Shown: in pieces, positions 1,875 through 61,941 of the stretch
Numbering within the stretch: the first letter of the stretch is position 1
Layout of the letters: each line of letters opens with the position of its first letter
Source of the DNA: Girardia tigrina
Taxonomy: Eukaryota
Direction: 5' to 3'
Length of the DNA stretch: 64,000 nt
NCBI GenBank assembly: GCA_001938485.1
Contig: MQRK01182251.1
Location: 14,024 to 78,023, forward strand
Made by a program: the position numbers and the translations under genes
Notes under the pieces: generated by a model
The model's database searches: none
The model's input: only the letters and a program-made list of their open reading frames with translations
What the model was told of the DNA's origin: nothing

Positions 1875-1936
1875 ATCTAAATAAATAATTTCAAAAATCA
1901 CATATGGTTATAAAATCATGAAACTACAATCCTCAC

Positions 1937-2119
1937 TTCATTAATAACAATGCGATGAGCGCCTTCTGCCAATCTAATGTCTTTGGATTTACAGATAAAT
2001 TTGTCACATTTCATACAATGAAAATCCCAAACCGAATCTCCAAATTGTCTATTTATCGATAGCCTAGAAATTTTTGCACAATTTTCATTTAATTCTCTTT
2101 CTTGTTGGGCTTCCTTGAT
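1937..2119 (-). CDS. RLR exon 25: end of pincer and first half of Zn-binding C-terminal regulatory domain
   Basis: IKEAQQERELNE...WDFHCMKCDKFICKSKDIRLAEGAHRIVINE resembles the RLR CTD pattern CxxC...D(I/V)R.IE..H; AG acceptor 2121-2120, GTGAG donor 1936. Confidence 0.88.
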
Positions 2120-41900: not shown

Positions 41901-44900
41901 CACACCTTCAATGTCATCCACCATTTCAAATTCTAAATAAAAATACATTTCATTTACAATCAAATAATTAAATGTCAAAACTAAACCTTTAAAATTTTTT
42001 TCAGAAATTTCTGTACCATAGCTAAATATTCTTTCTTTTTTCTCTTCTTCTGATTTGAATTTATCAATATCTAAATAGTTTAAACATTATTATACTTTTA
42101 TACTAAGAAGACATCACTGGTAAACAAAGATTTTGGCACAAGGCAAGTCAAAGTAGTTCTTGAATGTATTTCTTGTGCTGATTTCGAAAATGTTTTCAGG
42201 AGTCTTCTAACACCCTCAGTTTTAAAATTATGCCTCTTAATTTTCGTTCTTTGGTATATACACAATGGGTTTCAGTCAATTCCACTGGCTCACGCAGCCG
42301 ACATGAAAGAAACATATGAAAGCATGAAACTACTGCTATAAGTGGAGCATCATCGCTGATTTGAAAGTTGTCGCTCTTTTGCTTGAGCTACAACTTGGTT
42401 TTACGAAGTACAATTGTTTTCTTTGCGAGTGGGACAGTAGAGACCGGAAAAATCATTACAGAAGAAAGCAGTAGCCAATACGCACATCACTAACCCCAGG
42501 AACGAGGAATGTCGTCAATGCATCACTTTTTGATCGGAAAACTTTTTGATCCCATCATTCCATATCAAGCTCGAACTTATGAAGAATTTTTTAAAATCAA
42601 TGGATACAAGTAGTCTTGGATTTTTATACTTGACGAAAAAACTCCCAAAAATCAGTGATGCAAAGATCAAGGAAGGTATCTATGTAGGTCCTCAAATAAA
42701 AGAAGTCGTTGAAGACGAGAACTTCAACGATCAGTTAAACCCGACTGAAAAACCTACATGGAACTTGTTCAAGAATATTTGCCGAAACTCCTTAGTAAAC
42801 CACAAGGCAGACAACTACAGAGAAGTAATAGATGACCTGTTGACATCTTACCACACTATGAGATGTAACATGTTCCTCAAAATCCATTTATTGGACTCGC
42901 ATCTGGATTTCTATCCAGAAAATCTGGGAGCCATGAGCGACGATCAGAACGAACGTTTTCAACAGGACATTTCCTTAATGAAAAAGCGGTATCAGGGCAA
43001 ATGGTTCCCAAATATGCTCGTTGAGTACTGTTGGCCACTGAAGAGAGACGTTCTTGACACAAAGTACAGAAGGAGATCTTTCTACCTTTTAGGTAAGTTC
43101 AGATAATTGGAGTGATAAATGACTTTCAAAGCGGATTATTATGCACTTAGTTATTTAACTGTGAAATTTAATTTAATTAAATTTAACTTAAAATTCTTAC
43201 ATGATAGAGAAATTATGAAAACAGATTCAAATTCAGGCAGCAAATACCACTAGAATCACTTGTTTTTTTCTTGTGCAAAAAAAATAATAAAGTTTTGTGT
43301 ATTCAAACGAGAATATTGTAATTTTCAAATATGATAATTAAAGAAGTAAAGAATAATATGGAAAATTTTTTAATAAGTGTCTTTGAGTGATTTGGGTGTA
43401 TTAATAATGATTTTGATTTTAAAAATTCTTATTCATATATGCCGATTGTTCTTTATGTCCTGGATTGAAAAATCTCTCCTATCATTCCAAACATTTCTAT
43501 TATTCTCCCATTTTCTAAACCTATTTGGGTTTTCATAACATTGTGTTCGAAGATGCTCTCTTCTTTGACAGTAGTTACACTTAACCTTTAGGCATTCTCT
43601 TCGAACATGTCATTCCTTATGGCATGTCCAACAAATAATTTTTCTAACTCTATAATTCCAACTTGTACCTTTTCTCTTTACTACTTCGTACCGTGGTTTT
43701 GGTGTTCATCTTTTATTCTTTACAGTTTGCCAATCGTTTTCTTTCCTTGTAATATATGTCACTATCGGTGAATTTATTTTCTTTTAACCGTATTCATAAA
43801 TCATCATTTGTATGTTTTCGATCTCCTCTGCATTTGTTACATCTCGAATCGCTGTCTCTTGATGGACATTATCATCATCAATCATATTAGCATATATCAA
43901 ATTTAATAGATCTTTCTTACCAAACTTTTTTTCCACTAGTTTGTCGATTATCTCATTTGCTTTGTGGAACGCGATTGATGTGTCATCGAAACCTACTCTT
44001 AAATCTATGAGATCTTTCATCAAATCCAAAATAGATTTTTTCCTTTGAAAATGTCGCTCGGAGTTTCTCTTCGCAGGTACTTCCTGTTGCTTTCCAGTAT
44101 CTCAAAATCGGATCTGGAGTCAAGTAGGGTGTTACCCGTAGAATTTCCTTCTCCTATCATAATCCCATAATTTTTGAACATCTGTTAAAACTTATCAGGA
44201 GTTCCTATAATTTATGCTCGGATCTATGAAATGCTTTTAAGCCTTTGATGTTCGCAGTCACGTGGTGTGAAGTCACTGTATTAAGAGAACTCACATATTT
44301 GTAGCCACATTTATTGTAATCAAAATTTGGATAATCTTTATGACAATCCGTAATAATGCCTTTGCTCAAATTCATCAATCAATGTTTAATACTTCTTATC
44401 CAAAATCTGACCCAACATGAAACGAATTATTTTATTTAAATATTTATTTCAAATTTTATTGGTTAAAATAAAATTACTTTTCATAATCATTTAAAATCAT
44501 CAATTTGATTTCATTATTTAAAAATTTACAAAAATAAAATTAAAAAATTGCTTAACATTTACAATTGTTCCGCCCGACACTCAGGTTGTCCCGAGAATCG
44601 GACGGAGATAACAGGGTTGCGCAGGGAACCTTTCTCGATGTACTGGGCCCATTTTAATTTGATCCGACTAATGGGATTATTCATATTTGGATTCTCCAAT
44701 CTCATATAAATAGCAATTAATGATCCTTTGGTATTGACCAATCGATTTATCATTTCGTGAGGAAGCGCAAATGAAATATCGAAATCTTGACACAAAAATG
44801 TCTCTTATTACAAGAGTGCCATACACAGTTGTTCGAGGGCCGTCAATTGCATTTCTTCAGCACCACCTCGAAGCCAATTTAATAACAAATAAGGCAACTC

Positions 44901-47900
44901 GACTTCCTCCATTAATATTTCTTGTTAATATCAATTTGTCAAAATCAAAATCTCCGAAGAAAAAAATAAGGCAAATGAATCGATTTTATTTTCAAATTTT
45001 CAACTTTAATCCCATTTAATCTAATAAAACAAATACATCTTTTTCACATAATCCAATTAATTTCTTAATAAAAAATAATTTTAATAATAATAGTTTTTAC
45101 AAATAATAGTTTTTTTCCAATTTTTTCACATAAACCCACAAATTAATTTTCAAATAAAAACAATCTGTATCACAAATAGGTTTCTTTCTCAGTTTGTTAA
45201 AGGAAAATGAGGAAAGTNNNNNNNNNNNNNNNNNNNNNNNNNNNNNNNNNNNNNNNNNNNNNNNNNNNNNNNNNNNNNNNNNNNNNNNNNNNNNNNNNNN
45301 NNNNNNNNNNNNNNNNNNNNNNNNNNNNNNNNNNNNNNNNNNNNNNNNNNNNNNNNNNNNNNTCAATAAGTAAAATAATTGAATCCCGAACAACAGTAAT
45401 AATATTAGGTTGATGCAAAAGAAATGTCGCTTTTAATGTATTTAATATTCATTGTTTGAAATAGAAGGTCAGTCAGTAATCGCCGGGCGTCAAAACGACA
45501 CAGGTTTTAAAAATTCAATTTATTATTACATTAAAATTATGTACATAATCTAACGGAGTAAATGCTCAAAATGTTGGCCGCCTTCTTTAATGCATTTTGC
45601 TGTCCTTCGAACGACAGATTAGCAAGCACTTCGGCATAAATCATCACTAATTTCAGTGCAAGAATTCATTATCATTACCACAAGTTGATCTATTGTTCGC
45701 GGCTTTTTGGCATACACTGAATTCTTTAACATATTCCAAAGAAAGAAATCAGGAGGCATAAGCTCTGGAGAGCGAGGAGGATACTCGATGGAACCGCGGT
45801 GAGCAGTCCATCTGTTTGGAAAGTTGTTGTTGAGCCAGTTTGGCTCTACAATGCTATAATGGGGAGGTGCACCATCTTGTTGAAACCATATCTCCCCAAG
45901 CGGCCAGTTCTTCACACAGGGTATAAAATTATTGTTAAGCATGTATCTGTCACAGAACCTTCAAAGAAAAACGGCCCTAACAGACCGGAAGCAGTGGTTC
46001 CAATCCAAACTGCGACACCAACTGCGTTGACTTATTTTTGTAGGATTTCATGAGGATTTTCATGGGCCCAGTAAACAGAATTGTGACGATTGACCTGTCC
46101 GTTAAGCTTGAAGGTTGCCTCATCACTCCAAATAATCTTCTCCGGAAATGTAACGTCATCATGGCAAAGTTGTTGAAAAATCTGAGAGAATTCAACTCGA
46201 CGGTCATAATCATCTTCATTCAAGGAGTGGAGTAAATGTGGATGGTAAGATTTTAAATGAACATCGTGCAGGAGCCTGACAATGGAAGTTTGAGAAATGC
46301 TAAGCTCTTGTGATGCTCGTCTGGTGAATTTTCGAGGACTATTCGTAAAACTATTTGTAATAATTTGTCTGTTTTCAGAGTTGCATACAGATTTAGGTCT
46401 ACCACATCCAGGAAAATCTTCACAGAAACCATTTATTTCAAAGCGGTAAATTATATTCGCTATTGTGTCTCTTTTAACCGCCCTACCAAATTTTTCTTGG
46501 AATCGTCTACATGTTTCACTTTTGTTGTCCGTTTTATAAAATGCTTTTGAGAAATACACGTTCTTCAGTTATTAGTTTGGAATTATTTGACTCTGCCATT
46601 TTTAAGGTTTGTTAAATGATGAAATTATCGACTATAAATATGAAATTATCAACTTAAAGGGACTATTTGTAAGATGTGTTCACATGATCTTCTTAGTGAC
46701 TTTATACTAAGAAATCAACCGACTGATCGATGTAAACTCATTTTTTTACACTTGGATCACTAATATAATGACTACCCGGTGACTTCTAACTCACTCTGTA
46801 TTTAGAAAATCATTAATAAATAGATTTATATTTAAATTTACTTTAAAACTTAAACTTTACTCTATATTTTGATACCAAGTATGACATTATTGTTGTTAAT
46901 TTAAAACGAACGTTAATTTTAAAACGTTAATTTTAAACGAACTGGGATATGAAACTTTGCCTCATCCACCATACTCACCAGACCTTTCTCCTACAGACTA
47001 TCATCTTTTCAAACATTTCAAGCAGTTCCTTCGCGAAAACTGCTTCAGAGACCAGGTAGATGCTGAAAGAGCCTTAGACGACTTCATCGCCTCCAGAACT
47101 CCAGAATTTTATGAAACTCGAATAAAAACTTTTTACTCGTTGGCAACAGTGTGTTCAATGTAATGGTTTTTATTTTGACTAATAAAGTTAATTCTACAGA
47201 AAGTTATGTTCATTTAAAGTTGACGGTTAAAAAACGACATTTCTTTTGCATCAACCTAATAAATTAAAAATTTGAATATTAAATCTAAATTTGAATAAAT
47301 TAGCTTCAGATTATAAGAATTAAAATATTAATCATCACTCTGATTAGCATTGACACAATCCCGAATCAACACACAACATTTAAACACGCAAACAATACAT
47401 AAAAGATAAACATTCCAAAAATTCCTCACAAATCGAAAACGATTTATCAGAGTGTTATTTAGAAATTATGAATAATTTTCATTTGAATGCAGAAATAAAG
47501 TCGTACCTTTTAATAAATCTGGATAGTTGTTCTTAATAAAATCAGTTCCAAGCTTGAAATGGACATACAAGAGTTTGCCATACCAGTCGGTGCACTTCCT
47601 TTGAACTGTCAGTAAGAACTTGATAACCGCTAAGAGATCATAAAAGATGTTATAAAACAATCGAAAATACAAAAAATAAAGGAAATTATGCAGTTTCTCA
47701 CACCCATCTTTTTGATAAAAATCGAAATCTATTAAATTAAATAATATTAAAGATTTTTTGAAAAGTCACATCTGGACCACTTTTATTGTATTTTTTTATA
47801 AGATGGAATCAAAAACAGAGGGCCCAAAGTCGAGAATTAAACTTTGGTGTGAAAACATGTTTGTCTATTAGATGACTTTCATTTAAGACCTTTGCAAAAA

Positions 47901-50900
47901 TTAATTCGCCTTAAGAAAGAGATCAAATTACTGGAAAAAACCATTTGGAAAAAAAGAATGATAGAAGATTATTTTCAACATAACGAAACATGGTTTTATG
48001 ATCATGTATCATATATTAGTGCACATGTGATGTTTTGATTTTGTCCTACATTTCTGGGTGCTTGCAAGAAACGTTTCTCGACCCGCTCACTGCACAGCTT
48101 AAGACAGCATGTTGTCTCTCACACCATGAAGTTTTTTCATCAAATACACTTATTCGATAGTCTGTGCACCATTGACGAAGGTAAAACAATTTTAATTAAT
48201 TAGAAGTCAATTGATATGTCTTCAACTTTGCCACTGAAGTATGTCAGTATCTTTTGGAATATTTTCTGAAGACAAGGCTTAATTAACAGAAGCTGTAAAA
48301 GCTGTTGATAATCTAAATCTTCCGATCTCTATTCCTTTGACTACGGGATTTGGAGTAAAATGAAAGCGTAGATTTATCACAAAAATAAACTAACCACATT
48401 TCAGACTTTTTGTGAGACAGTTATTGCATATGACTGTGATCTATTTGAATATATATTTTAGACGCTTACTGAAAGCAATTAACACAGGTTTATAAGTCCC
48501 AATGACTAATACATTCATATATGCAATTTGTTTTGGAAAATCCCTTGTTCTCAGGGTAAGAATCTCTATCAAAATGTTACGTAACTTTAGGGGACCTATA
48601 TATTATTAATGGACTGCATAAGTTCCACAAAATTATATTATACTGTTTTTTTCGCCATGCTCCCTCAGATATGCATGTAATTCGTCATGCTCATAATCGT
48701 CGATCAAACCGATAACTCTGCACTGGTGTAGCACCGTGTCATTGAGACAAATATTCGTGTGCTCCTGCACTTCTGTCTTAAATAACTTCCTTGTAAAGTA
48801 CAATATCCTTTGTTTCTCTTTCGCCTCTTCACCATCATAGAAAAAAGGTTTGATCCATTCCGATGTTTCTGTTTTATCAATATTACTCAGGAATAATATA
48901 CAAAATTATACACTCTTGACGAGAATAACATGAACACTAAGAAAATAATTTTATTACTTAATTTAATACATTTACATGATAAAAGATAAAATAGGAAGAT
49001 AAATAAGCTTTGCCTTTTTAATCCTAATAATAAATCATCGTAGAAATAAAATTGATTTGAAGAATAAAATTTCAGCAATATGGAATAGTTTTGTTAATAA
49101 ATGTCATGATTTATTCAATTAAAAGAATAGAAGAATAGATACCATAACCACAAAGGTCGATTTTACAAGATTTTAAATAGTAGGATAGTCGAATTCTTTT
49201 GAATTGAAAATCAGATGTCCGAATTCTTTTGAATTGAAAAGCAGATGTCCGAATTCTCTCGAATTAGGGAAGAAATTTTAAAATGCGAATAAAATTTTTA
49301 TTATTTAACTTTTTTATTTGATTTCTTCAAATTATTTTAGAACTATATTTAGATTATCGTAAAATATCAAATTAGTTCATCTATAATACAAATAAGTGTT
49401 TATTATTTGTAATTACAATTTTTTAATAAAAAATGATTTTTTAGTAGTAGAAATCGTTAGATGGAGTATCAAATCTTATGTAATCAAAGATCAGAAATTG
49501 AGTAACAAAACCATAAGGAAGCCCTGAAGCATTAGTTGAGATTAAAAAAATATATTTAAAAGTAAACAACAGTTTCAACGCACATAGTCCTCAAGTTTTT
49601 TATAGAAATAATGAGGTATTCATTCTAATTTAAAGTATGAAAGCCTTTGTTGACAAACAAGCATATAAAACTGATATTAACTTTGGACAATCCTACGTTT
49701 CAAAGCATTTTAGTTTTTTGCGGCGAGTTAAAAAAAAATTAATAACACAATAAAAAATAAGATTTTGTGGAAGTTCAATAAGGACTTGAGACTTGTTAAA
49801 CCTACTGTCAAAGATTGAGTCTCAGTAATAATCTAGAATTCACAAATCCTAGACCGAAGCTGTTAAGGTTTATAGAAGCACATCAGATGTGTAATTCATA
49901 TTAGTATCTAAAAGTTTTGAATAAACCAATCAGATCAATACTATATTTGTATTTTCCTGAATCCGATGTGTGAGGAATGTTTTATATTTTATATTTTGCA
50001 GGTTGTATGTTGATTCGGATTGTGTCTCTCCTACCCAGATGGTTGATTGGTATTTTCTTTGATTCCTACTAATTCAAAATAATTTCATTTCATTTTTAGG
50101 TAAAAAGATGTAAATATTTTTTTATTTATTTTAAAAGTTAGTATGAATTTCAGAAATATATTAATCAAGAAAAATGTCGAATAGCGAAAGTGGTTTGAAT
50201 AATCGTTGTAATGATGATTCTGTTTGTGACGTTGTAAAGAGATGGAGCGTTCAAAATGATACATTTCAGATTAAGTGCAGCAGTCTGCAAAGTCAAATCC
50301 TACTAAAAATATTTGACCTTTCTAAAGGAAAAAGTGATGTAAATTTGTTTTCCAAATTACTAGCAATATTAGGAATTTGGTTGCCATTTAAACTCTTAAA
50401 AAATAAGCACTTTTCATAAATAACCGTTAAAATGAGATCATTGAAAATCATAAATATTTGATTGTTCAAAGTGATAAATGTATAATTATTAATGTTACGT
50501 GTATTTCTTCATTTATAAAATTTCATATTCCGGAAATTATCTTTTTATATGAAATTAACAAATATTTTTTGTGTCCATCTTATTTTTGCTCATAATATTA
50601 TAATCAATCAATTGACATAAGGTTAAAAAAGGTAATTTTCAATTTTGACAAGCTTCAATCCGGACGAAGATTTAAGGCCAGAATCATCAATTATAGTTTA
50701 ATATTTGTTAGTTTTAAAAAATGTTAATTTTAATGAATGATTTAGAAAGTTTTTACTTATATTTTAAGATTTGGAACGATTTTATTTTGTCATTTTGAAT
50801 GTTAATTAATGCATTGTATTGTTCTCAATAATGATTCACAGAATTACCACTCATAATGTGAATGAAAGCCCTTCTGTAAAGCAGAAAAGTGATACTTTTT

Positions 50901-53900
50901 TATAAAAGTGAGCTGACAGATTATGAAATTGTCCTTTGATAAAACTTGTATTGCTTATTAGAGGAAACGCTGGAATTTTTTTAATTCTAGAATCCGAATG
51001 CTAATATGTTACTATTTTTTGTTTTAATATGGAAAACAAAAGTTTTAAAGCGGAAACTCCGCACGAAAAGATAAAGAACTGAATTATTTCTTTTGATTAC
51101 TTTGGTAAATCAAAATCAAAGATAGAAATTGATGTTTTGAGAAATGGAAATAATGCAAAATAAGAAAAAATTAATACTAACAATTTAATATTAACAAGAT
51201 AACAAGAAACAGCCGTCGTTAGGATCATAAAACGTGGCTGTACAATCGGATATCCGGTTAAGTATTCGCTTAGTGCAAAATCAGAGCCTGAAACTATTGG
51301 ATCAATTGTTGAGTTCATAAGTTCGTGAATTTATTTTATCTTACTAATTCGAATATTTACATAAGTAAAAATTATTATTAGGATCATTATCATAAATATC
51401 ATTCAACATTTCATAACATTTTTCATTCAACTTCAAACATTGAAACAATAATAAATTATTTGCATTAGGTTGTCAAGTATGAAATTTGTAGGCATGATTA
51501 CAATTTATTTAAATAGTTTTGTTGCTCAGTACTTTTTTTTTATTGCTACGTATCTTGGCTATTAAAAATACTGATAACCGTTTTAATGATCACTATTTTA
51601 AAAAAGGAAAAAGGCAGAAATTTGAATTGTAGGGTTCAAGATTAAAATCAAGATTCCTTAACTCGCAAAACTTTATTTCTAACAAACAAAAATTTTTTAA
51701 GCTATTTTCTGAGGAACAATGTTTCATTTTTAGCACAACCAGATATTATATTTGAAATATAAATATTGATATATAATTTTAGTCAATAAAAGTTTTTATA
51801 CTTTTAAGTAAAATAAATTATAACTTTAAATTTTCTTTAAAAGAAAATTATATCCCAAAATATTTTTTCTTTATTCATGTTATAGTCTTAAATAAAAGAT
51901 TAATAAAATGGATTATCAATATTTATTAACAAAAAACAATGTTTAAATAGTAATATTTAAACAACATATAAATTCTTATTTTTTAATAATTTCTATTTTT
52001 TTATTCATTTTTTAATAATTATCATAAATTATAATATAACATCCCCCTTTGGAAATCAACGATATTTTGGTGCTGGATTCCTGGTGCTTCTAATCGGGTA
52101 TCTCGTCTTTCTGACAATTGATTCTTTCCTTGATATAAATGACATACACTATTCATAATCTATTGGTGCGTTTAATTCCCCGTTGTACTTTTTTAACTGA
52201 TTATAATTTCTTCTCATTACTTTCTGCGATGTTTTATCTTGAAGAATATAAGTATACTTATTTAAAATCTTTTGTATTGCATATGGTCCACTGTATATTG
52301 GTTTACCCAATCTTCTCTCTCCGTTTTCTTTAACCAGTACTTTGTCTCCGATATTTAATTGCTTATACCATGTGTTTCGATTATATATATATATATATCA
52401 GCTCAGTAACCACAACCTGTTTTCATTTTGTCTATTATCAATTTGTTTAGTTTTTCTTGTTCTCGTTTAAGCCACATCACATAATCATTTATTGATTTTG
52501 TTGTACAATCATTGTTGGTTGTGATTAAGACTATGGGCTTTCTACCAAAAACAATTTCAAAAGGACTAAGGCCTGTTGTCTTTTGATTTGAACATCGTAG
52601 TCCAAACTCAACCACTGTTAAAATGTTAGACCAGTCGCCTGTCCTGTTCGCCATCATACACGATCCCATTAACTCATTTGCAGTTCGAAAAAGTCTTTCA
52701 ACTAAACCATTTGATTGTGGGTAATAAGGTGAAGAGTGTGACTTTGTTATGTTCATGCCTGAACAAAATCGTCGAAATTCCGTTGACGTAAAATACGAGG
52801 CATTATCTGAATGAATCTTTTCTGGTTTTCCATATTTAGAGATCCATTGATCCCATAAGGACTTTATGATCNTACTCGAATCAATTTTCTTAATAGGAAT
52901 TAAAGACAGATATTTTGAAAAGTAGTCAATGATGCCTAGTACATAACGATGACCATCTTTAGTACAGCGAAAATGACCACAAATATCTATTCCAATCATT
53001 TGAAATGGTTGATTTACGAAAAAGCTCTGAAGAGGGACTTTATCACGACCATTTTTTCCCTTCATTCTTGAGCATGCTTCACATTTCGTAACAAAATTCT
53101 TTATATCTGTCGTCAAATCTGGCCAATAAAATTCAATTTTCATTGCATTTAAAGTTCTTTCAATTCCAACATGACCTAACAAATTATGCATTTTGTGAAT
53201 CATATTGAATCTGTCAGATTTCGGAACTATTAATCTGTATGTATCTTTGTCTAATAAATAAAGTACATTTCCTCTAAGGCGTAAATCTGGTAATTTAGAC
53301 AATAAAGTTCTAAATCCTTTGTTTTCTTGAACATCTTTGCGTAGACTTTTTATATCTATTTCTTTTTTCAATATTTTGACAATCGATTTAATAATCACGT
53401 CTTTAAATTGATTGTCATCACTAATAAATAGCTTGCATATCGTTTTTTCTATATTTGATTTATTTGAATCTTCATCGTTAAAAACTTTGACATTTCTTTT
53501 CTTAAGGGGTTCATTGTGTTTCAGTTTACATTGTTCACAGTAGCCTAACCTGGAAAGAGCATCGGCATTAACATGATCCTTTCCCTTCAGGTATTCTATA
53601 ACCATGTCGTAAACTTCCAGTTCAGATTTCCATACACAAAATTGAGAAGTGTTCGGACTATCCATTTAAGAAACCATTTTAAAGCTTCATGGTCAGTTCG
53701 AACTGTAAATTTTTGTCCTAATAAATAATGCTTAAATTTTAATACAAAAGTATAAATTGAAAAAAGCTCTTTTCTAGTAATTCAATATTTTCTTTGGCTT
53801 TTAATCAATGTTTTTGATGCAAAGGCCACAACTCCTTCTGAACCATTCTGAATTTGTAATAATACCGCTCCTATAGAATTTTGGGATGCATCTGTATCGA

Positions 53901-56900
53901 GAACATAGTATCCATCACGTATCGGTAAAGCTAATACTGGCGGAGAGGATAGTGCTTCTTTAAATCTATTAAAAGCATTAATTTTATCATCATCCCAATC
54001 AAATTTAGCATCTTTTTGAATCATTCGTGTTAAAGGCTCCGATAACATAGCATAATTCTTGATAAATCTCCTATAATAATTGCACAGGCCCAAAAAAGAC
54101 TGCAACTCTTTAACACACATTGGTATATGCCACTGTTTAATTGCTGTTATCTTATCTGGATCTGTTCTTACTCCATCAGCATCAATAACATGACCAAGAT
54201 ACTGCACTCTGGTTTTCAAAATACAACACTTTTCTGGTGACAGTTTCAGTCTAGCATCTTTAATTCTCTGGAGTACTAAGCTTAATCGTTCATTATGTTC
54301 TTTTATAGTTCTTCCGAAAATCAGAACATCGTCTAAATATATTAGACACTTACTGCAATTTTCTCTTTGCAGAATTATATTCATCATTTTCTGGAAGGTG
54401 GCAGGAGCAGAGCAGAGACCAAAGGACATTCTTGTAAATTCGAACTGTCCATGTTTTGTTGTAAAGTTTTAGGGTTTAGTTTTCGCCATTGAGTTAATTT
54501 GACTTTCATTATCTCTACTTACTTCTGAAATCGAATCTGAATTTTGGCATTCCGATCAAAAGTGTATTCTGATACAATGCTATTAAACAATAGAGTGTAT
54601 CAATTTGGTTCAGGAAATTCGTGAAATGTAATTTTAATTTCATTAATGAGTTTCGGGGTCACCTAGGAACACAGGTACACAATGACGAACGGGAGGTAAC
54701 CGTGGAGTCAGATCAATCATAAAGTGCTCATGATTTACGACAAACGTTTGCTGTTACAAAGCAAACGATATTGAATCACTTGGCTAAAATCGGTAAAATG
54801 AAAAAAAGTTGGATAAGTGGATTCCACATGAGTTTATTGAGAAGCAGAAACAAAAATGTTTGAATGCTTGCTTCATGATGCTTTCTTGTTATAAATGTGA
54901 TCAATTTTGAATTGAATTGTCACTTGGGATGATAGGTGGATGTGGTGTTAACAAAGCGAGCGCATTACGGTCAAGGAACCCCGGGGTTGGTGTGGAGTTT
55001 TAGGGTCAGGTATGAATAACTGCAAGAATCACCCCACCGAGAACAACGGCAAGACGAGAGGAGAACAGTATTTTCACTCTGTGAACACTTCTATGATCAG
55101 AATTCGGTATCAGCCCTGATGCACATTTAGCTTTTGGTGGTAATCCGTTCGTAGAGAAGACGCTATTGTACATCATCTATTTTAGGATCGCATTATCATG
55201 AATTTTGTGAACGACGAATGCTATCGAAAGCCTCTGCCGATTTTCGTGATATATGTCGGTGCGAGATTCTGTTTGACGACTCGACACGTTCATCAAAGAC
55301 CCCCTTGAGTGGTAGAACTTTTAGATTCTATTCCGTTTTATGTTTTATCAATTCTCATAATGGTTTTCATCCATGATTTTATGTATTTTTTTAATCTTTT
55401 CAAATTATATTACTCTACCAACCACACATTCAAAAAACAATCAATAATATCATTTGAAAACTCTGTTTAATTAAGGAATAATATTAAATTCATTTTCAAA
55501 ATAGATTGTGTCACTGATACAGCTTCGACTTTCATAAAAACAATTTCTCGATTTAAGAACTGTAAAATTTGGTGATGACTCGATTAATCGATTAAATTTG
55601 TGACGCACGACTTTAACTGAGGAAATCTCCAAAAAATCAGTAATCTCTAATTCTTCAATTTTTGAATTATCTATTCGTCAGTTCCCCCAAAGTTTGCCCC
55701 AAGATCAGATATGGTAATCGCAAACTTTCAGCAAGATGGATGGACACGAATGAAACACCAAAACACAGTCCAAAACACTACCATCACGAAAAGAAGCTAA
55801 TTGTGAGGGTGTGATGATCTGACACAGGCGTAATCCACTACGACGTCATAAAATCTTGTTCGTCGATCACACCAGATGTCTACTGCAACTAATTGGAAGA
55901 TATGATGCGGAAACTAAAAGAAAAAACAACCGCCTTTGGTAAACAAGTCGACTCTCACCTTGCTCAACAATAATACAAAACTACATACTTCACTTAAGAC
56001 TGTGATAAAACTACAGAAACATGTCATTCGGAATTTCTGCATCATCCTCCATACTCACCAGACATAGTCCCAACTGATTACCATTTCTTCCTTGATTTTA
56101 CTAAATTTTGGATAAGAAAAAATTCAATTCCGAAGATGCAGTAAAAATGCCTCCCAAAATTTGTATTCAAATGACCTCAACAATCTGCCGCTCAAATGGT
56201 ACAAGTGTGTCCATAATATTGATGCATACTTTGATGAATGACAGAAATATTTGTATTGGTAGATTATCAATAAACTTTGATTTTAGTTCTGCAAATACCT
56301 AATAGTAATATATTGATCATATTTGCAGTTGAGCCTTTTAATTATTCTCAAAAATAATATTTACGGAATAATTAAATCAATAAATTATAATGTAAAGTCA
56401 TTATTATTGACTCGAAAATAATTCACACCTTCAATGTCATCCACCATTTCAAATTCTAAATAAAAATACATTTTATTTACAATAAAATAATTAAATGTCA
56501 AAACTAAACCTTTAAAATTTTTTTCAACAATGTCTGTACCATATCTAAATATTCTTTGTTTTTTCTCTTCTTCTGATTTGCATTTATCAATATCTAAATA
56601 GTTTTAACATTATTATAATTTTATACTTAGAAGATATTCAAACGAGAATATTTTAATTTTCAAATATGATAATTCAAGAAGTAAAGAATAATATGGGAAT
56701 GTTTTTTTAATAAAACTGTCTTTGAATGATTTGGGTGATATTAATAATGATTTTGATTTTAAAAAACAATATAGAAGCAGTAAATGGTTTGTTTGATATT
56801 TATCTTCACTAGCAAACAACAACCTCTCACATCGTCCTCGATTTAAAGTTTCAGTCATTCAATATTTTGAATAAATATTCTGACAGTTCAAAACGTTTAT

Positions 56901-59900
56901 TTGGTATTTTGTTTAATAAATCAATGTGGTTTGATGTGGATAATCTCGAGAAGAAAATGTTGTTACCTTTATCATCAGCATATCAAATTAGATGATCATT
57001 TTCCACGGTGCAAATATTCTGACAAACATTTGTTATAATATGGAAGTTGAAAAGAGAACTTCAGTAGCGACTTTCTTTCATCAGAAAGAATATTAAGACT
57101 ATCTGAAAAAGTCATCAGTCACAGTCTTCTGATAATTGATGCTGTAAGATTTATAAGTATAATTTATAAGATTTTAATTCTCAACTTTTAAATAATTATT
57201 AATGTTATTAAATTTAGATATCTATATTTATAATAAACTGTTAAAAATAGAACTACAAAAAAACCTTTTGGGAGAATTCAAAAATTGTAAATTAATAAAT
57301 TATTTTCATACAATCGTATATTTTCTTTATTTAAATGTCGGAAGAGTCAGGAGACATTTATACGACCAATATCGTTCCTAACAGATGCAATAAACGAAAT
57401 TTTTCTGCTGTAGTTGATTTGTATGATACATGTAAGTAAGTTTTATATTTTAATAAATATTTTCTATATTTTTTATAATTGTTATTTCATTTATCAAAAA
57501 GAAACACATTATTCATGGTGTCAGAACATTTTTTTCATATCGAAGGTGGATAAATCATTATTAAGGAATCATTATTAGGAACCACTTTTATGTTTTTATG
57601 ATTTAAATGCTTGTGAAATATAAAGAATCAATTTACTTGTGTGAATTTGAAGACTATTTAATTTACTTGATCCACCCTTTTTATGCTATATTTAAATTAG
57701 TTTATTATTTAAAAAAAACTTAAAATTAAATTTGAAAAGTTCAAAATCAAACTTGAAACTCTGTAGCATAAATTTTATTTAGTATCATTCATCCGATTAA
57801 ACTCACTAAAAATACATATATTTTTATACATATATTAATTAATACTAATATTAATACTAATATTAATTAATATTAATTAATACATATATTACATATAGTT
57901 TTAATTACACAATCTTTACTTTATCAGAAAGTAATAGAAATCTTAGTGTTAGTGAAATTTTAGGATCCAAAAAATCTGACATATAGTTTTTCATTACTTG
58001 CGCTCTCCCACCCTATTTAACACATTGACTGCTGTTGACATCATGTACCGAACGTCTGCTACGCGCGCTACGCGTGGGACAAAAAAGTTTACTGCCGCGC
58101 CTTTTTAGCATTTAACACATTGAATGCTGAGTACGAGATATCTCGTACTTAGCGTCTTAGTAATGTAAGTCAAAGTACGAGATATCTCGTACTCAGCATT
58201 CAATGTGTTAAATTTATAAAGAAGGAACTGTATTTTTTCATATTTGTTTCCTTTAATGAAACCTAACAGGATTATCATAAGTTGATTTATTAGTCTGTAA
58301 TCCTAGAAGGCACTGTTTGATACAGTAAGCAGGTTGCCCTAGACATTGACTGATGGTAGTAGATTCATGTCTGTGGATTTGCATCCCATTTTATTGATAA
58401 TCTCAATAAATTGTTTAGTCATTTTATGCATATTTTTATTTATAAAATCGTTAATAATTCAGATCGAAAATTGGAAGTTTGTAGGTGGTGTAATAATTTT
58501 TAAAATTATAGGAAGAATGTCTCTTGTGAGGCATTAATGATCAAATCACATATTCCATCGATTAGTGTTCAAACAAGCATCTTACATTTTGTTGAAAGTA
58601 TTTAATGAGCTATTAAAAAGATTAATTGTATTATCACTAGGGATGTACCGGTTTTCGGCACCGGCACCGGCAAACCGGTAATACCGGGTATTTTCAAGCA
58701 CCGAAACCGGCAAATTTTGCCGGTTTTTGCCGGGTTTTTTTCCGGTTTTGAAAAAATAAATGTTACTCGCTATGAATATAAATATAATGAAAAATATTAT
58801 TTTCGAACGAAAAATTTGGAAAAAAGTCTTTTTACTTAAATAATATATTTGTTTAAATATTCATTTATTATTATCACGTTTAAAATTACTATTCAAATTA
58901 TTACACTATGAGTTTCAAAAATAAGACAAGTCATGTCGTGCAATTTTATACAGTATGTTCAAATGCGTCTCACATCGCAAGATGTAATATCTGTCATACG
59001 AATATACTACGTGGTCAAGCTGGAAATACTAGAAATTTCAGTACTTCAAATCTAATTTCTCATATACGAAGTAGACACCCAAATGAATACATCAACATAC
59101 AGCATCCTACGTCACATCCAATTGCTTTCTCTGAAAACTGTCCTTCAATTCCAACAAATACCAGTAGTTCTCAACAAACTTTGGAAGTATTAAGAAAATT
59201 AATTGGGTTTTCTTTACATTTATTTATATCAAAATTTGGATTTTCACTACATCAATTCTCCGTAAACATCGCTACTTTTCTGAGTTTGTAGCTACACAAG
59301 CTAAAGATAACCTTCTTCTTGTTTTTACACTTTAGTGTCTAAATGAAAACACTACAAACGTGGAGCATTTATTTGAGTTTAATAAATGTTAATAAATGTT
59401 ATTGCTCTTGACAAGGACAGCAGTATCATACTATACAATGCTGAAATAACCAACAATGAATAACGCTTCTTACACTCGGCAAGAACAAACAGCCTGTCGA
59501 ATAACTTCATCCTATGAAAAATAAGGGCAAAGACCCTCTGCAGTGCATGTGGCTTAAGTACAGAGACATAACTCCATGTTTTCCGTCTCTGTAGGCGAAA
59601 TAGTCCGATGATTATAGGTCGACATAATACCATAATGAACATTGTCATGGAGGTTCTAAATACAGATAAGCCAATCTTATCAATCAAAACCTACCAGCAA
59701 TGCGAATTCAACCAAGACAGAATATATCTTCAGCTATACAACTGTGAAAGTAAAGGTCTCTGGTTGATCAACATCAAAACACCCTACGACACAAACAAAC
59801 TGTTTTCAAACGCCAGATCAGAGAATGAGAAAAAATACGAATACCTAAAGAAAGAAGCTAAACAGATCATTCGAAGATGGACGATTCAATTAGGGACTAT

Positions 59901-61482
59901 TGTCGTTGGATGTCAGGGCTCATGGTCAGAAGGGAATAACAAAATCATCAACACATTGAAAATATCACCTACAGGAATGAAGAACCTAAAGCGAATGTGT
60001 CTCATATGTAATGTGAAATTTGCCACATCAACGTGAAGCAAACACAATACAGGTCATAGGAACACAATGATCAACGAATAAACCAGAAAATACTAAACAT
60101 GTTAGAGCGACTCTAGCTCTACTTGTTCAAACGATATCTAGATGACTACTTGAATTGTTTATAATAGACTTCGTTTTTTATTCAGTGGAATATTATTCGT
60201 GATATCCGCATTTATATTTTTGGTGTTTATCTTTGATAATGCTTGAATTAACCTTTCAATCTCAATAAAACATTGCTTTTGGTATGACCATTTTACAAAT
60301 AAAAAGATACTGTTTTCCACAGTGATGAAAAAGGTCAATTTGGTCTAAGATTATCTCAATTTTTAACTGTTTCAAATAACATCAAATCCATTAATATTTA
60401 ATTCAACCTATACTGTTATAAATATTATTAAAAATATGTGATTTATCAGAGTGTTATTTAGAAATTATGAATAATTTTCATTTGAATGCAGAAATAAAGT
60501 CGTACCTTTTAATAAATCTGGATAGTTGTTCTTAATAAAATCAGTTCCAAGCTTGTAATAGACAAACAAGAGTTTGCCATACCATTCGGTGCACTTCCTA
60601 TGAACTGTCAGTAAGAACTTGATAATCGCTAAGAGATCATAAAATATGTTATAAGACAATCGAAAATACAAAAAATAAAGGAAATTATGCAGTTTCTCAC
60701 ACCCATCTTTTTGATAAAAATCGAAATCTATTAAATTAAACAATACTAAAGATTTTTTGAAAACTCACATCTGAACAACTTTTATTGTATTTTTTATAAG
60801 ATGGAATCAAAAACAGAGGGCCCAAAGTCGAGAATTAAACTTTGGTGTGAAAACATGTTTGTCTATTGGATGACTTTCATCTAAGACCTTTGCAAAAAAT
60901 AATCCATCTTAAGGAAGAGATCAAATTACTGGAAAAACCATTTGGAAAAAAGAATGATAGAAGATTATTTTCAACATAACGAAACATGGTTTTATGATCT
61001 TGTATCATATATTAGTGCACATGTGATGTTTTGATTTAGACTTACATTTCTGGCTGCTTTCAAGATACGTCTCTCGACGAGCTCACTGCACAGTATCTAA
61101 TAGCTTACGACGTCATGTTGTCTCTCACACGATGAAGTTTTTCTTCAAATACACTTAGTCGATCGTATGCGCACAATTGACGAGGATAAAAACAATTTTA
61201 AGTAATTAGACGTCAATAGATAATCTCTTCAACTTTGCCAATGAAGTATGCAAATATCTTTTCGGAATATTTTCTGAAGACATGGCTTAATTAACAGAGG
61301 CTGTAAAATCTGTTAAAAATCTAAATCTTCCGATCTCTATTCCTTAGAGTCTTACTCAAAATCCAGTAGTCGAAGCCTTAGATTAATGTATTTGGAGTAA
61401 GATGACAGCGTAGATTTATCACAAAAATAAACTACCTAGATTTCAGAATTTTTGTAAGACAGTGATTGCATATGACTGTGAT

Positions 61483-61526
<44 letters not shown>

Positions 61527-61941
61527 CGCTTACTGAAAACAAGTAGCACAGGTATATAAGTCAGCATGACTAATACATTCATACATGTAAATCCCTTATT
61601 CTAAGGGTAAGAATCTTTATCAAAATGTTACGTAACTTTAGTGGACCTATATATTATTAAGGGACTGCATAAGTTCCACAAAATTATATTATACTGTTTT
61701 TTTCGCCATGCTCCCTCAGATACGCCTGTAATTCGTCATGCTCATAATCGTCGATCAAACGGATAACTCTGCACTGGTGTAGCACCGGATCACTGAGAAA
61801 AAAATTTATGTGCTCCTCCACCTCTGTCCTAAATAACTTCCTTGTAGCGAAAAACCTCCTTCGCATCTCTTTCGCCTCCTCATTGTCATACAAAAAAGTT
61901 TTGATCCAATCCGATGTTTCTGTTTTATCAATATTACTCAT
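1937..61941 (-). CDS. RIG-I-like receptor (RLR; DDX58/IFIH1/DHX58 family) DECH-box RNA helicase with three N-terminal CARD-like modules; 25 exons, 3' end outside window
   Basis: Manually spliced exons (minus): 61941-61695, 60628-60506, 56593-56510, 56455-56429, 48868-48644, 47629-47507, 42070-41987, 41932-41906, 38540-38331, 35077-34955, 33400-33317, 33270-33220, 33171-33100, 30138-30073, 30023-29991, 29939-29766, 29719-29586, 26721-26483, 19152-18866, 13295-13200, 13152-12977, 9531-9393, 2758-2369, 2326-2169, 2119-1937. All introns GT-AG and phases match. Motifs: Q (RKYQEELA), I (SPTGSGKT), Ia (LVHRIALVEQQ), II (DECH), III (GLTAS), IV (IIVFVRER), V ([10 protein letters not shown]), VI (QSRGRARA), then pincer and CTD CxxC. 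Helicase part high confidence; joining of all N-terminal exons is inferred. Confidence 0.88.
2169..2758 (-). CDS. RLR exons 23-24: Hel2 domain (motifs IV-VI) and pincer
   Basis: PENPSLKCL..., [44 protein letters not shown]|RARA across a 42-nt intron (2327-2368), KENINKYRESMMYRAI. Confidence 0.95.
3420..5335 (-). mobile_element. Tc1-family transposon, full length, degenerate transposase
   Basis: TIRs CAGTATGATTCA(T)AAGTCTGTTCACCCCCT with TA TSD; transposase pieces ISKSTVERIL..KPF, FSDE, FQQDLAP, WPGNSPD. Confidence 0.9.
6780..8493 (-). mobile_element. hAT (ZBED/Ac-like) transposon remnant
   Basis: TAGGGATGCA terminus at 8493, CCGG-rich subterminal repeats, DIWT..YISLTAH and SSLAHTLQL motifs, PPTSVPSER dimerization motif near 7100. 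Confidence 0.8.
8600..9350 (+). mobile_element. pogo/Tc2-like DDE transposase remnant
   Basis: Fragmented frames SGN..MSKSSFRHFSKEYLIPF..ILDDW and FQSLGLYFHQ.K. Confidence 0.5.
9393..9531 (-). CDS. RLR exon 22: Hel2i insertion domain
   Basis: AFVRALMVNHLFRAVDAVKLI... matches the RLR Hel2i helix pattern; phase 0 to 1 exactly bridges the neighbouring exons. Confidence 0.85.
10480..12320 (+). mobile_element. Tc1-family transposase remnant interrupted by N gap, (TA)n and a solo LTR
   Basis: WSNVVF.NEKRF.LD, QDNCTVH, PDLNIIEHVW, VIKTFYDNYMKRL fragments. Confidence 0.7.
11838..12236 (-). mobile_element. Solo LTR (TGTGAGG family)
   Basis: Inserted in the Tc1 coding frame with GTTA duplicated on both sides; homologous to 49969-50210 and 21221-21594; partial copies near 10250-10350 and 47325-47430. 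Confidence 0.65.
12977..13295 (-). CDS. RLR exons 20-21: Hel1 end and Hel2i start
   Basis: EILKPNPRTKDDFDIELQKQM...|MRDYFPKDPG...HQKYQGFV...ITNYLN; 47-nt intron 13153-13199; GTAAGT donor at 12976. Confidence 0.85.
13683..13869. mobile_element. pogo/Tigger-type MITE related to 422-638
   Basis: Imperfect TIRs CCGTATTATCGCGCATATA / TATCTGTGCGATAATACGA flanked by TA. Confidence 0.7.
17270..17720 (+). mobile_element. Non-LTR retrotransposon (RTE-like) RT C-terminal fragment
   Basis: VTEFNYF...IKERIKKGR..., KKVLIKSCIFPIVYYGSENW...KLEALHNACTR. Confidence 0.75.
18866..19152 (-). CDS. RLR exon 19: Hel1 motifs II (DECH) and III (GLTAS)
   Basis: FSLILFDECHNCDKKHPYNKIM...PQIIGLTAS...LCANLD; GTGAGT donor. 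Confidence 0.96.
21221..22000 (+). mobile_element. LTR retrotransposon 5' end: LTR, PBS and degenerate gag
   Basis: LTR begins TGTGAGG at 21221; PBS-like TGGTGACCAC at 21595; DLEDFIDNFERHSEIM gag-like fragment. Confidence 0.6.
22150..23130 (-). mobile_element. Gypsy-like gag remnant with PBS and zinc knuckle
   Basis: AACA followed by TGGCGACCAT (23130-23121); GPDIFDWDNARLETFIKDFDRY; IICWACNKVG knuckle near 22430. Confidence 0.7.
23917..24000. repeat. Minisatellite, about 23-bp unit, 3-4 copies
   Basis: Repeated TTTTTAATATAATAAAGCATAC. Confidence 0.85.
24180..25010 (-). mobile_element. pogo-like DDE transposase remnant
   Basis: FEASKSWIYKF, NFDQ...FE.KP..TI..KG, ILDSYP, PLNVSVNQSFQ fragments. 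Confidence 0.65.
26483..26721 (-). CDS. RLR exon 18: Hel1 motifs Ia/Ib (not in the ORF track)
   Basis: EHLNANTNGKVAFLVHRIALVEQQCNQF...LSG...DLFVLTSDILKNAL; AG acceptor, GTAAGT donor, phase 0 to 2. Confidence 0.93.
27959..28546. mobile_element. Non-autonomous TIR element with about 15-bp subterminal repeats (MULE-like, tentative)
   Basis: Imperfect inverted ends CGGT...GACAATTC.ACAC; 15-bp repeats at 28450-28540; flanks ttttaaa/ttttgaa. Confidence 0.55.
29062..29148. repeat. Exact tandem duplication of about 43 bp
   Basis: TCAATAGCTGCCCAGATCGATCATATTCTTTCAGACTGATTTC twice. Confidence 0.9.
29586..30138 (-). CDS. RLR exons 14-17: acidic linker, Q motif and Walker A
   Basis: Four exons split by 49, 51 and 46 nt introns; DDEKYDDSDDSDDD linker then LVMRKYQEELAKKGIEGQNVLICSPTGSGKTVVAVKIVE. 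Confidence 0.9.
30810..31340 (+). mobile_element. Probable 5' fragment of an R2/NeSL-like non-LTR element; related copy near 26280-26395
   Basis: GC-richer island with a degenerate C2H2-like KFQCPF...H..KFH; about 100 bp homologous to 26290-26390. Confidence 0.4.
32243..32878 (+). pseudogene. GFPT: Glutamine--fructose-6-phosphate aminotransferase (GFAT) glutaminase-domain fragment, intronless, truncated
   Basis: RLEYRGYDSVGIA, GIAHTRWATHG, NSHPHRSDPNNEF, HNGIITNY, ETDT, LEGSFA..FKS..FPGE; ATG TGA where the Met-Cys-Gly start is expected; no SIS domains. Confidence 0.9.
33100..38540 (-). CDS. RLR CARD-like module 3 (exons 38540-38331, 35077-34955, 33400-33317, 33270-33220) plus linker exon 33171-33100
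   Basis: LNESILFKAREMKLITDAKMDSLLNIYKKKRKY|AKVEFLLAVMNNSDNWYGKLLQIF aligns with modules 1 and 2; identical exon lengths 123 and 84 nt; all phase 1. Confidence 0.78.
33996..34200 (-). mobile_element. gag remnant with PBS
   Basis: TGGCGACCAC at 34180-34171 followed by PTIFDGHNDLEQFITDCNRFF, similar to the 22877-23130 gag. Confidence 0.6.
35330..36070 (-). mobile_element. Tc1 transposase remnant
   Basis: WPGNCPDLNPI, WSMMST...CI fragments. Confidence 0.6.
36220..37200 (-). mobile_element. hATm-like transposase remnant
   Basis: VLH*DGKLLP..DRLAII, DDYRELFKLTMIFLGG, HIRWMAKAIY motifs. Confidence 0.6.
37512..38213 (-). mobile_element. Internally deleted Tc1 element carrying a captured host exon (Pack-TIR-like)
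   Basis: 28-bp TIRs CC(A/C)TGCCCTACCAAAAGTCTTT(T/G)GTCAG flanked by TA; FQHD..H...WMPQSLDLNPIE; 38016-38118 is the reverse complement of 33277-33379. Confidence 0.85.
38791..40135 (+). mobile_element. mariner (Mos1-like) transposon, about 1.3 kb, in-frame stop at 39304, internal N gap
   Basis: TIRs TT(A/G)GGTGTACAACTAATTAATTTCGTATTT, TA TSD; WVPHEL, HHDNA, HPPYSPDIAPSDY. Confidence 0.95.
41185..41780 (+). mobile_element. mariner remnant (3' half), duplicated with the CARD module; longer copy 54540-56300
   Basis: HHPPYSPDIIPTDYHF motif; near-identical copy at 55705-56300. Confidence 0.75.
41906..48868 (-). CDS. RLR CARD-like module 2 (exons 48868-48644, 47629-47507, 42070-41987, 41932-41906)
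   Basis: Open frames; VLHQCRVIGLIDDYEHDELHAYLREHGEKN|TVIKFLLTVQRKCTDWYGKLL resembles the RLR CARD pattern (E..Q....N.G...A...FL..L......W...L). Confidence 0.75.
42115..43299 (+). mobile_element. Chapaev3-like (CMC) transposon, internally deleted
   Basis: CACTGG...GTG ends; QLGFTKYNCFLCEWDSR, HIKLELMKNF, KIKEGIYVGPQI, LKIHLLDSHLD, ERFQQDI; absent from the paralogous site near 56635, implying a 3-bp TSD. Confidence 0.75.
43440..44030 (-). mobile_element. gag remnant with two CCHC zinc knuckles
   Basis: IICWTCHKE*HVRREC and KCNYCQRREHLRTQC. Confidence 0.7.
45405..47259 (+). mobile_element. Deleted mariner element hosting a nested transposon
   Basis: TIRs TTAGGTTGATGCAAAAGAAATGTCG with TA TSD; PHPPYSPDLSPTDYHLF at 46957-47163. 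Confidence 0.9.
45463..46798 (-). mobile_element. maT/DD37D-like Tc1-mariner element nested in mariner
   Basis: WSDEATFKLNGQVNRHN, FQQDGAPPHY, PPRSPELMPPDFFLW; imperfect TIRs. Confidence 0.82.
49969..50210 (+). mobile_element. Solo LTR fragment (TGTGAGG family)
   Basis: Homologous to the reverse complement of 11880-12236. Confidence 0.6.
52042..54470 (-). mobile_element. Ty3/Gypsy LTR retrotransposon pol (RT-RNase H-integrase), 5' truncated and frameshifted
   Basis: FGLCSAPATFQ, YLDD, DTDAS, integrase H..GH..C..C, SDN, PQSNGLVER in Gypsy domain order; polypurine tract 52050-52042 followed by TGTTA. Confidence 0.95.
56429..61941 (-). CDS. RLR CARD-like module 1 (exons 61941-61695, 60628-60506, 56593-56510, 56455-56429)
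   Basis: MSNIDKTETSDWIK...VLHQCRVIRLIDDYEHDELQAYLREHGEKN|TIIKFLLTVHRKCTEWYGKLL; candidate start ATG at 61941, or alternative phase-1 acceptor giving exon start 61919. Confidence 0.75.
58116..58207. mobile_element. piggyBac-like MITE (92 bp hairpin)
   Basis: TTAA on both sides; perfect TIR CACATTGAATGCTGAGTACGAGATATCTCGTACTT; another similar left end at 58021. Confidence 0.8.
58638..59190 (+). mobile_element. hAT transposon 5' end with BED zinc finger
   Basis: TAGGGATG terminus, ACCGG subterminal repeats, ARCNIC...STSNLISHIRSRHP. Confidence 0.85.
59300..60270 (+). mobile_element. R2/NeSL-like non-LTR retrotransposon 3' fragment (CCHC finger and restriction-like endonuclease)
   Basis: CSACG..ET..HV...C, RHNTI, KTPYD, EKKYEYL, IVVGCQGSW; AATAAA near 60265. 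Confidence 0.75.

What the first reader, a model, noticed from the sequence alone, without database searches (positions are those of the whole stretch)
41906..61919. Duplicated CARD modules 1 and 2 differ mostly by replacement substitutions (possible diversifying selection)
Hand count: exon A has 19 amino-acid-changing codons vs 5 silent-only codons, with 17 of the 19 in the first 45 residues. Exon B has 6 nucleotide differences, all nonsynonymous. Exon C has 6 nucleotide differences changing 5 residues and none silent. Exon D is identical. There are no stops or frameshifts, and the intron next to B (47441-47506 vs 60440-60505) is identical. Inferred: adaptive divergence of an antiviral signalling surface, or relaxed constraint.
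Basis: partly seen in the sequence, partly recalled or inferred. Interest (0 to 1): 0.75.

Follow-up and report, generated by a model that had tools for sequence, protein, structure and literature searches.

The report
Planarian virus sensor's doubled signalling domain
A flatworm gene for a RIG-I-like viral-RNA sensor carries a young, in-frame, spliced duplicate of one predicted CARD signalling domain, and the two copies differ mostly in amino acids, likely because the extra copy lost its packing neighbour while gene conversion evened out the rest, with positive selection at a few sites likely but not shown.

Summary
The counts are right: exon A 19 replacement vs 5 silent-only codons, B 6:0, C 6:0, D identical. 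But replacement sites outnumber silent sites about 4:1, so dN/dS is 1.2-2.0 and not significantly above 1 (P 0.13-0.38). The cluster in exon A includes the silent changes too (5.5 of 6.5). Both copies are spliced in RNA contigs, with an exon D to A2 junction, so neither is dead. The gene is a RIG-I-like receptor, likely the orthologue of Schmidtea PRLR1, which has one such module. The module is a CARD by profile comparison. Gene conversion makes divergence patchy (P<0.0002). The cluster sits where the original copy would pack against an upstream CARD that the duplicate lacks. Hints of positive selection: exons B-D 12:0 (P about 0.04, post hoc), changes more conservative than neutral (P 0.004) yet dN/dS at least 1, and 10 of 10 displayed outgroup-only changes are replacements. 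The scan's earlier notes held nothing on this.

The parts
61695..61919 (-). Exon A1 (225 nt, phase 1-1): predicted last helix of an upstream CARD, then CARD helices 1-3 of module 1
   Evidence: A1-to-B1 joint in RNA contig
60506..60628 (-). Exon B1 (123 nt): CARD helices 4-6, WYGKLL motif
56510..56593 (-). Exon C1 (84 nt): linker
56429..56455 (-). Exon D1 (27 nt): linker, identical to D2
   Evidence: a D exon is joined to A2
48644..48868 (-). Exon A2 (225 nt): orphan helix (T15P) and helices 1-3 of module 2; holds the divergence peak
47507..47629 (-). Exon B2 (123 nt)
   Evidence: A2-to-B2 joint skipping 1014 nt
41987..42070 (-). Exon C2 (84 nt)
   Evidence: B-to-C loose end
41906..41932 (-). 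Exon D2 (27 nt)
55504..62088 (-). Duplication unit 1 (exons plus homologous intron blocks)
   Evidence: self-BLAST; alignment
40972..49041 (-). Duplication unit 2; intron B-C lengthened by separate transposon insertions (5436 vs 3912 nt)
47441..47556 (-). 116-nt tract identical in both copies (end of B plus intron), likely gene conversion
   Evidence: longest-run P 0.0002
38331..38540 (-). Exon A3 of the older module 3 (24% identical to A1; lacks the opening helix motif)
34955..35077 (-). Exon B3 (123 nt, 45% identical to B1)
33317..33400 (-). Exon C3 (84 nt, homologue of C1/C2; predicted)
33100..33171 (-). Linker exon D3 (predicted)
29586..29939 (-). Acidic linker exon and first helicase exon (GSGKT)
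18858..26721 (-). Helicase exons (motif Ia exon 26482-26721; DECH/TAS exon 18858-19166)
1919..2759 (-). Helicase C, pincer and start of the RIG-I C-terminal domain; the last exons lie about 9.6-10 kb beyond the window start

Best explanation
A four-exon cassette (A-D) encoding one predicted CARD plus linker was duplicated in tandem inside a RIG-I-like receptor gene and both copies are spliced in frame; their patchy, replacement-rich divergence likely comes from gene conversion levelling most of the cassette while the copy that lost its upstream CARD neighbour likely escaped constraint at that junction, with positive selection likely fixing a few further changes. Shown: the duplication, all-phase-1 exons, an open frame to the helicase, spliced joints for both copies, conversion-like identical tracts, and dN/dS of at least 1 but not significantly above it. 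Inferred: exon A opens with the last helix of the preceding CARD. In module 1 that helix and helix 1 would pack against a leader CARD encoded upstream of the window; in module 2 they follow a linker, so they are free to drift or refit, and conversion tracts across this stretch would damage module 1 and be purged, keeping silent differences there too. The product is predicted to have four CARD-like domains (leader, M1, M2, M3), raising the valency with which one RNA-bound receptor would nucleate CARD oligomers; that function is untested.
For: Open 571-codon frame over 14 exons with GT-AG ends. RNA contigs of run X2: A1-B1 and A2-B2 joints, and an A2 contig with 0 differences whose 27 loose letters are exon D. 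CARD identity: a mollusc RLR CARD profile scores M1, M3, M2 at 22, 19, 18 bits; the reverse search peaks at 22 bits against at most 4.6 for 294 shuffled or reversed controls; hhalign 93%. The first ten residues of exon A align to the end of the preceding CARD in Mytilus DDX58 (residues 274-284), and AlphaFold puts a short helix there before a long one (low confidence). 16 of 25 changes in A+B lie in codons 9-50; M2 has a proline in the orphan helix; the older M3 has lost that motif. Conversion: Sawyer-like P<0.0002 in the A-B block; both window copies have E67 where all three covering contigs of X12 have Q. Schmidtea PRLR1 has a ~73-residue leader, one M1/M2-type and one M3-type module (supplement of PMC8797187, read by eye). 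Selection hints: B-D 12:0 (P 0.044); replacement sites exceed local neutral sites (combined P 0.012-0.072 over 10 flank settings); changes more conservative than neutral (BLOSUM 0.33 vs -0.36, P 0.004); dN/dS 0.7 rejected at P 0.03; codon 72 reads Q, H, M, E in M1, M2, X10, X12.
Against: No whole-module test is significant (P 0.13-0.38). Exon A against its own flanks: ratio 1.2-1.5, P 0.16-0.40. Conservative-change/silent ratio 2.2, P 0.09-0.22. Silent and flanking sites near short exons may themselves be constrained, inflating the ratio. By hand, changed sites match PRLR1 about as often as unchanged ones (12 of 30 vs 55 of 113, P 0.42), so changes do not clearly avoid conserved sites, and they fall on both copies (M1 ancestral at 7 sites, M2 at 5), not only on M2. 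The C-D block shows no significant conversion signal (P 0.07). The leader exon was not found in G000. Pfam CARD models miss the exons. D1 and D2 are identical, so the D-A2 joint does not say which D. Only 40 of 114 difference rows were displayed.
Confidence: 0.55

Rival explanations
1. Relaxed constraint only: the extra CARD is redundant, both copies drift nearly neutrally inside one protected reading frame, and conversion supplies the patchiness; no positive selection.
For: dN/dS not distinguishable from 1; exon A 0.78-1.2; changed sites do not avoid PRLR1-conserved sites; the 5' part of A has neutral-like exchangeabilities (P 0.14). Lack of stops and indels only shows that the shared frame is protected.
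Against: Changes after codon 53 are clearly conservative (P 0.003-0.01), which means filtering, yet show 14 replacements to 1 silent change; filtering should push the ratio below 1. 10 of 10 displayed outgroup-only exon differences are replacements.
Confidence: 0.27
2. Arms race across the module: viral antagonists or a fast-changing adaptor drive diversifying selection over the exposed CARD surface, including the exon A cluster.
For: All point estimates exceed 1; replacement sites in 5' A differ at 3.2 times the mean non-coding rate; a divergence peak amid converted DNA is a published mark of selection (PMC3924837); PRLR1 mediates the planarian dsRNA response (PMC8797187).
Against: Silent sites in the same stretch are raised alike (ratio about 1.2); non-coding divergence is itself uneven (P 0.016); the cluster coincides with an internal CARD-CARD junction; no partner or antagonist is known here.
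Confidence: 0.15
3. One module is a dead copy, or the pair are two haplotypes assembled in tandem.
For: The assembly is fragmented (255,254 contigs); dN/dS near 1.
Against: Both copies appear as spliced contigs identical to the window in run X2, with a D-A2 junction that only a tandem or circular arrangement gives; runs X10 and X12 of other labels also hold two A-type contigs with different upstream ends; the copies carry different intron insertions.
Confidence: 0.03

Closest known systems
Schmidtea mediterranea PRLR1 (dd_Smed_v6_3742; PMC8797187)
   Same: Likely orthologue: same order of leader, WYGKLL module with SEEEK linker, second older module; 67 of 143 module positions match one or both copies (hand count on the first 400 residues printed). 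Three RLR-like helicase loci in G000; the one on C208380 resembles PRLR2.
   Different: PRLR1 has one copy of the module; this gene has two. The paper's main text never mentions CARDs (0 occurrences); its domain figure S7 could not be seen.
Vertebrate RIG-I (DDX58) and MDA5 (IFIH1)
   Same: N-terminal CARDs, DECH helicase, pincer, zinc-binding C-terminal domain.
   Different: Two CARDs only; here three in the window and a predicted fourth, below Pfam cut-offs. By hand alignment the RIG-I CARD2 residues that bind Hel2i (R109, L110; PMC4737149) fall on codons 36-37, unchanged between the copies.
Mytilus multi-CARD RLRs (e.g. P0001, M. coruscus DDX58)
   Same: More than two CARDs on one RLR: 3 CARD_2 stretches in P0001.
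   Different: The mussel CARDs are far diverged from each other; here two copies are 91% identical in coding DNA. Lophotrochozoan RLR domain grafting is described (PMC8998645), but the words Platyhelminthes, Schmidtea and planarian do not occur in its main text.
Divergence peaks under gene conversion (red/green opsins; PMC3924837)
   Same: Islands of difference inside converted duplicates.
   Different: Here the duplicates are domains of one gene, and the peak has a structural explanation that needs no new function.

Membership tests
RIG-I-like receptors | SF2 DExD/H helicase with intact motifs | tested here: met
   GSGKT, DECH, TAS, QSRG-RARA exons; Pfam DEAD, ResIII, Helicase_C; 14 of 14 listed homologues carry RLR C-terminal domains
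RIG-I-like receptors | C-terminal RNA-binding domain (RIG-I_C-RD) | tested here: met
   two exons score 29.1 and 27.8 bits, cut-off 25.6
RIG-I-like receptors | Hel2i insertion domain | tested here: inconclusive
   no exon found for profile positions 231-373; the same gap in the paralogue; 12929-13174 is an unassigned candidate
RIG-I-like receptors | dsRNA-triggered signalling | not testable with these tools
   shown for Schmidtea PRLR1 by RNAi (PMC8797187 passages), not for this gene
CARD (RLR type, CARD_2) | Pfam CARD/CARD_2 score above cut-off | tested here: not met
   single exons give no hit; genome search gives none over cut-off; the spliced module was not scanned against Pfam
CARD (RLR type, CARD_2) | Profile similarity to RLR CARDs over helices 1-5 | tested here: met
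   18-22 bits vs at most 4.6 for controls; hhalign 93%, 92% global
CARD (RLR type, CARD_2) | Six-helix death fold | tested here: inconclusive
   only exon A could be folded: pLDDT 62, four helices, no fold match
Positively selected gene segment | dN/dS significantly above 1 | tested here: inconclusive
   whole module P 0.13-0.38; B-D subset P 0.01-0.04, post hoc
Positively selected gene segment | Excess of fixed over polymorphic replacements | not testable with these tools
   listed exon pieces of X2 and X7 matched the window copies; no polymorphism sample
Concerted evolution by gene conversion | Over-long identical tracts and within-species shared states | tested here: met
   A-B block P<0.0002; C-D block P 0.07; E67 in both copies vs Q67 in X10 and X12
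Pseudogene / dead exons | Stops, frameshifts or exclusion from mRNA | tested here: not met

The most novel reading that the evidence does not exclude
Planarian RLRs carry CARDs that standard domain searches miss, and in this lineage the PRLR1 sensor has grown to four; selection holds the two youngest CARDs apart against gene conversion because each now binds a different partner or escapes a different viral antagonist.
Probability: 0.25. Interest if true: 0.72.

Novelty: new variant of a known kind. Interest (0 to 1): 0.45.

Why it matters
It catches CARD multiplication in an RLR while the copies are still alignable base by base, with an older duplicate (M3) showing a likely end state. It also points to hidden CARDs in planarian PRLR1 and PRLR2, whereas a review describes a planarian RIG-I as signalling without traditional CARDs (PMC6652118; that may be another paralogue). 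That makes the unknown adaptor of the planarian dsRNA response a concrete target, testable by RNAi and pull-down. The selection claim alone is weak.

Tried and rejected
ATG at 61941 as start: likely intronic, since it lies 22 nt upstream of an acceptor that is used by both A-type contigs of X10 and X12, is present in the paralogue, and PRLR1/PRLR2 have a leader there; the lack of deep contigs over the matching upstream stretch in X2 is not counted as evidence. A 'diverged exon D' read from the loose-end consensus: rejected, it is a letter-by-letter mix of two contigs; decoded, it fits the end of the PRLR leader. Searches for the leader exon in G000 and neighbouring contigs found nothing; the assembly is incomplete. 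No further copy of A or B in G000; the weak hit L024 overlaps a repeated element. Protein searches with exon A found no relative; PDB sequence searches nothing relevant; fold search nothing; no Atlas result. The Hel2i-contact idea: the equivalent residues are unchanged by hand alignment. No run is on record as RNA; X2, X10 and X12 are treated as RNA because they show splice joints. Contig depths (521-566 for the exon contigs of both modules) cannot rank expression. Reads were laid on one 1.6-kb stretch only, so C1-D1, D2-A3 and later joints were not seen. Li et al. 2019 (atypical D. japonica RIG-I) is not held. No paper on CARD doubling in planarian RLRs appeared.

Full report
Setting. The window lies on contig C182251 of G000, a 1.43-Gb assembly in 255,254 contigs, 29% G+C. 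One minus-strand gene spans it. Its exons carry the helicase motifs GSGKT, DECH, TAS and QSRG-RARA and the RIG-I C-terminal domain; the best listed homologues of the Helicase C exon are mollusc RLRs (14 of 368 candidates). The animal is inferred to be a triclad planarian from the match to Schmidtea PRLR1 and PRLR2 (below).

The duplication. Self-comparison gives three homologous blocks, 86-94% identical, between 55504-62088 and 40972-49041. Each unit holds exons A (225 nt), B (123), C (84) and D (27), all phase 1-1, so a tandem copy keeps the frame. An older third module follows (A3 210, B3 123, C3 84 nt), then linker and helicase; the 14 exons give 571 codons without a stop. No other copy of A or B was found in G000. 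A paralogue on C208380 has one recognisable module with the same phase-1 exons.

The observation. All counts are confirmed. The expectation matters: 373 replacement and 83 silent sites. Over 152 codons there are 34.5 replacement and 6.5 silent differences: dN/dS 1.20 (P 0.38), 1.55-2.02 by ML (P 0.13-0.38), 1.69 with a mutation spectrum from 2166 aligned non-coding sites (P 0.19). Exon A alone gives 0.78-1.2. Its cluster is real (26 of 29 differences in the first 135 nt, P 0.0006) but includes 5.5 of 6.5 silent differences. Exons B-D give 12:0 (P 0.044; 0.011-0.044), a subset picked after the fact. Values of 0.5 or lower are rejected (P<=0.002).

Both copies are alive. In run X2, contigs join A1 to B1 and A2 to B2 across the intron, and an A2 contig with no difference from the window ends in the 27 letters of exon D. 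D1 and D2 are identical, so D1-A2 is the simplest reading, not the only one. Runs X10 and X12, under other organism labels, each hold two A-type contigs that leave at the same acceptor: one consistent with D, one into unrelated sequence 249-258 nt long. So the duplication is likely shared with related species, and module 1 likely follows a leader exon outside the window.

What the module is. Pfam misses the single exons. A profile of mollusc RLR CARDs scores M1, M3 and M2 at 22, 19 and 18 bits and the paralogue's module at 3; the reverse search reaches 22 bits against at most 4.6 in 294 shuffled or reversed controls; hhalign gives 93%. The supplement of PMC8797187 (file 1, first 400 residues per cell; labels scrambled, matched to the cDNAs in file 6) shows PRLR1 with a ~73-residue leader, one M1/M2-type module and one M3-type module, and PRLR2 with leader plus one module. 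The leader looks CARD-like by eye only. The doubling is thus lineage-specific, and four CARD-like domains are predicted.

Why the changes cluster. First, conversion: identical tracts in the A-B block are too long for uniform divergence (116 nt; Sawyer-like P<0.0002; C-D block P 0.07), non-coding divergence runs from 0 to 11%, and both window copies share E67 where X10 and X12 show Q. Second, context: the first ten residues of exon A align with the last helix of the preceding CARD in Mytilus DDX58. In M1 this helix and helix 1 would pack on the leader; in M2 they follow a linker. 16 of the 25 changes in A+B lie in codons 9-50, M2 has T15P in the orphan helix, and M3 has lost the motif. All 8 displayed rows where outgroups share a paralogue difference show the M1 state, but the table lists only differences from M2, so this is biased. 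Against PRLR1, by hand, M1 keeps the ancestral residue at 7 sites and M2 at 5; within codons 9-50 it is 4 to 2.

Is there positive selection? For: replacement sites exceed local silent-plus-flank sites (combined P 0.012-0.072 over 10 settings, driven by B and C-D); the changes are more conservative than neutral (P 0.004), so some filtering acts, yet the mean ratio stays at or above 1; of 18 exon rows among the 40 displayed of 114, the 10 outgroup-only ones are all replacements, and adding them gives P 0.05 against neutrality; codon 72 has four residues in four sequences. Against: no whole-module test is significant; silent and flanking sites of short exons may be constrained; changed sites do not avoid PRLR1-conserved sites (12 of 30 vs 55 of 113, P 0.42). 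I put some positive selection at about 0.6, and a module-wide arms race at about 0.15.

Literature seen. PMC8797187 (passages, supplement parts), PMC6652118, PMC8998645 (passages, section 2.2), PMC3924837, PMC4737149, PMC4795655, PMC7958881, PMC13563047 (passages only). RLRs with more than two CARDs exist in mussels (3 CARD_2 stretches in P0001). Searches listed no paper on this doubling; figure S7 of PMC8797187 and Li et al. 2019 could not be seen and may bear on whether planarian CARDs were noted.

Verdict. A real, expressed, lineage-specific CARD duplication in a planarian RLR, a new variant of a known kind.

Noticed in passing
window 33277-33379 and 38016-38118: A 103-nt inverted copy (4 differences) of most of exon C3 and its donor lies in intron A3-B3; the pre-mRNA could pair across exon B3.
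   Followed up: partly
window 52403-54468 (-): Gypsy-type retrotransposon remnant (RT, RNase H, integrase) in the intron between the two modules.
   Followed up: partly
window 32249-32878 (+): Intronless 209-codon frame with a class II glutamine amidotransferase domain, antisense in an intron; possibly a retrocopied GFAT fragment.
   Followed up: no
window 40972-41720 and 55504-56240: A mariner-like remnant downstream of exon D is present in both units, so it predates the duplication; other Tc1/mariner remnants (38935-40050, 45400-46600) are single.
   Followed up: partly
window 50165-50340 and 57020-57375 (+): Short ATG-led exon-like stretches ending in GT donors on the opposite strand; no Pfam hit for the first.
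   Followed up: no
G000:C208380:32486-33911 (L039) and G000:C184625: Two more RLR-like loci; the first has one cryptic CARD module and resembles Schmidtea PRLR2.
   Followed up: partly
PMC8797187, supplementary file 1, sheet 4: Sequences and labels are out of register (PRLR1 stands under Danio RIG-I, human RIG-I under Dicer-2); the PRLR3 sequence begins with zinc-finger-like repeats instead of CARDs, by eye.
   Followed up: partly
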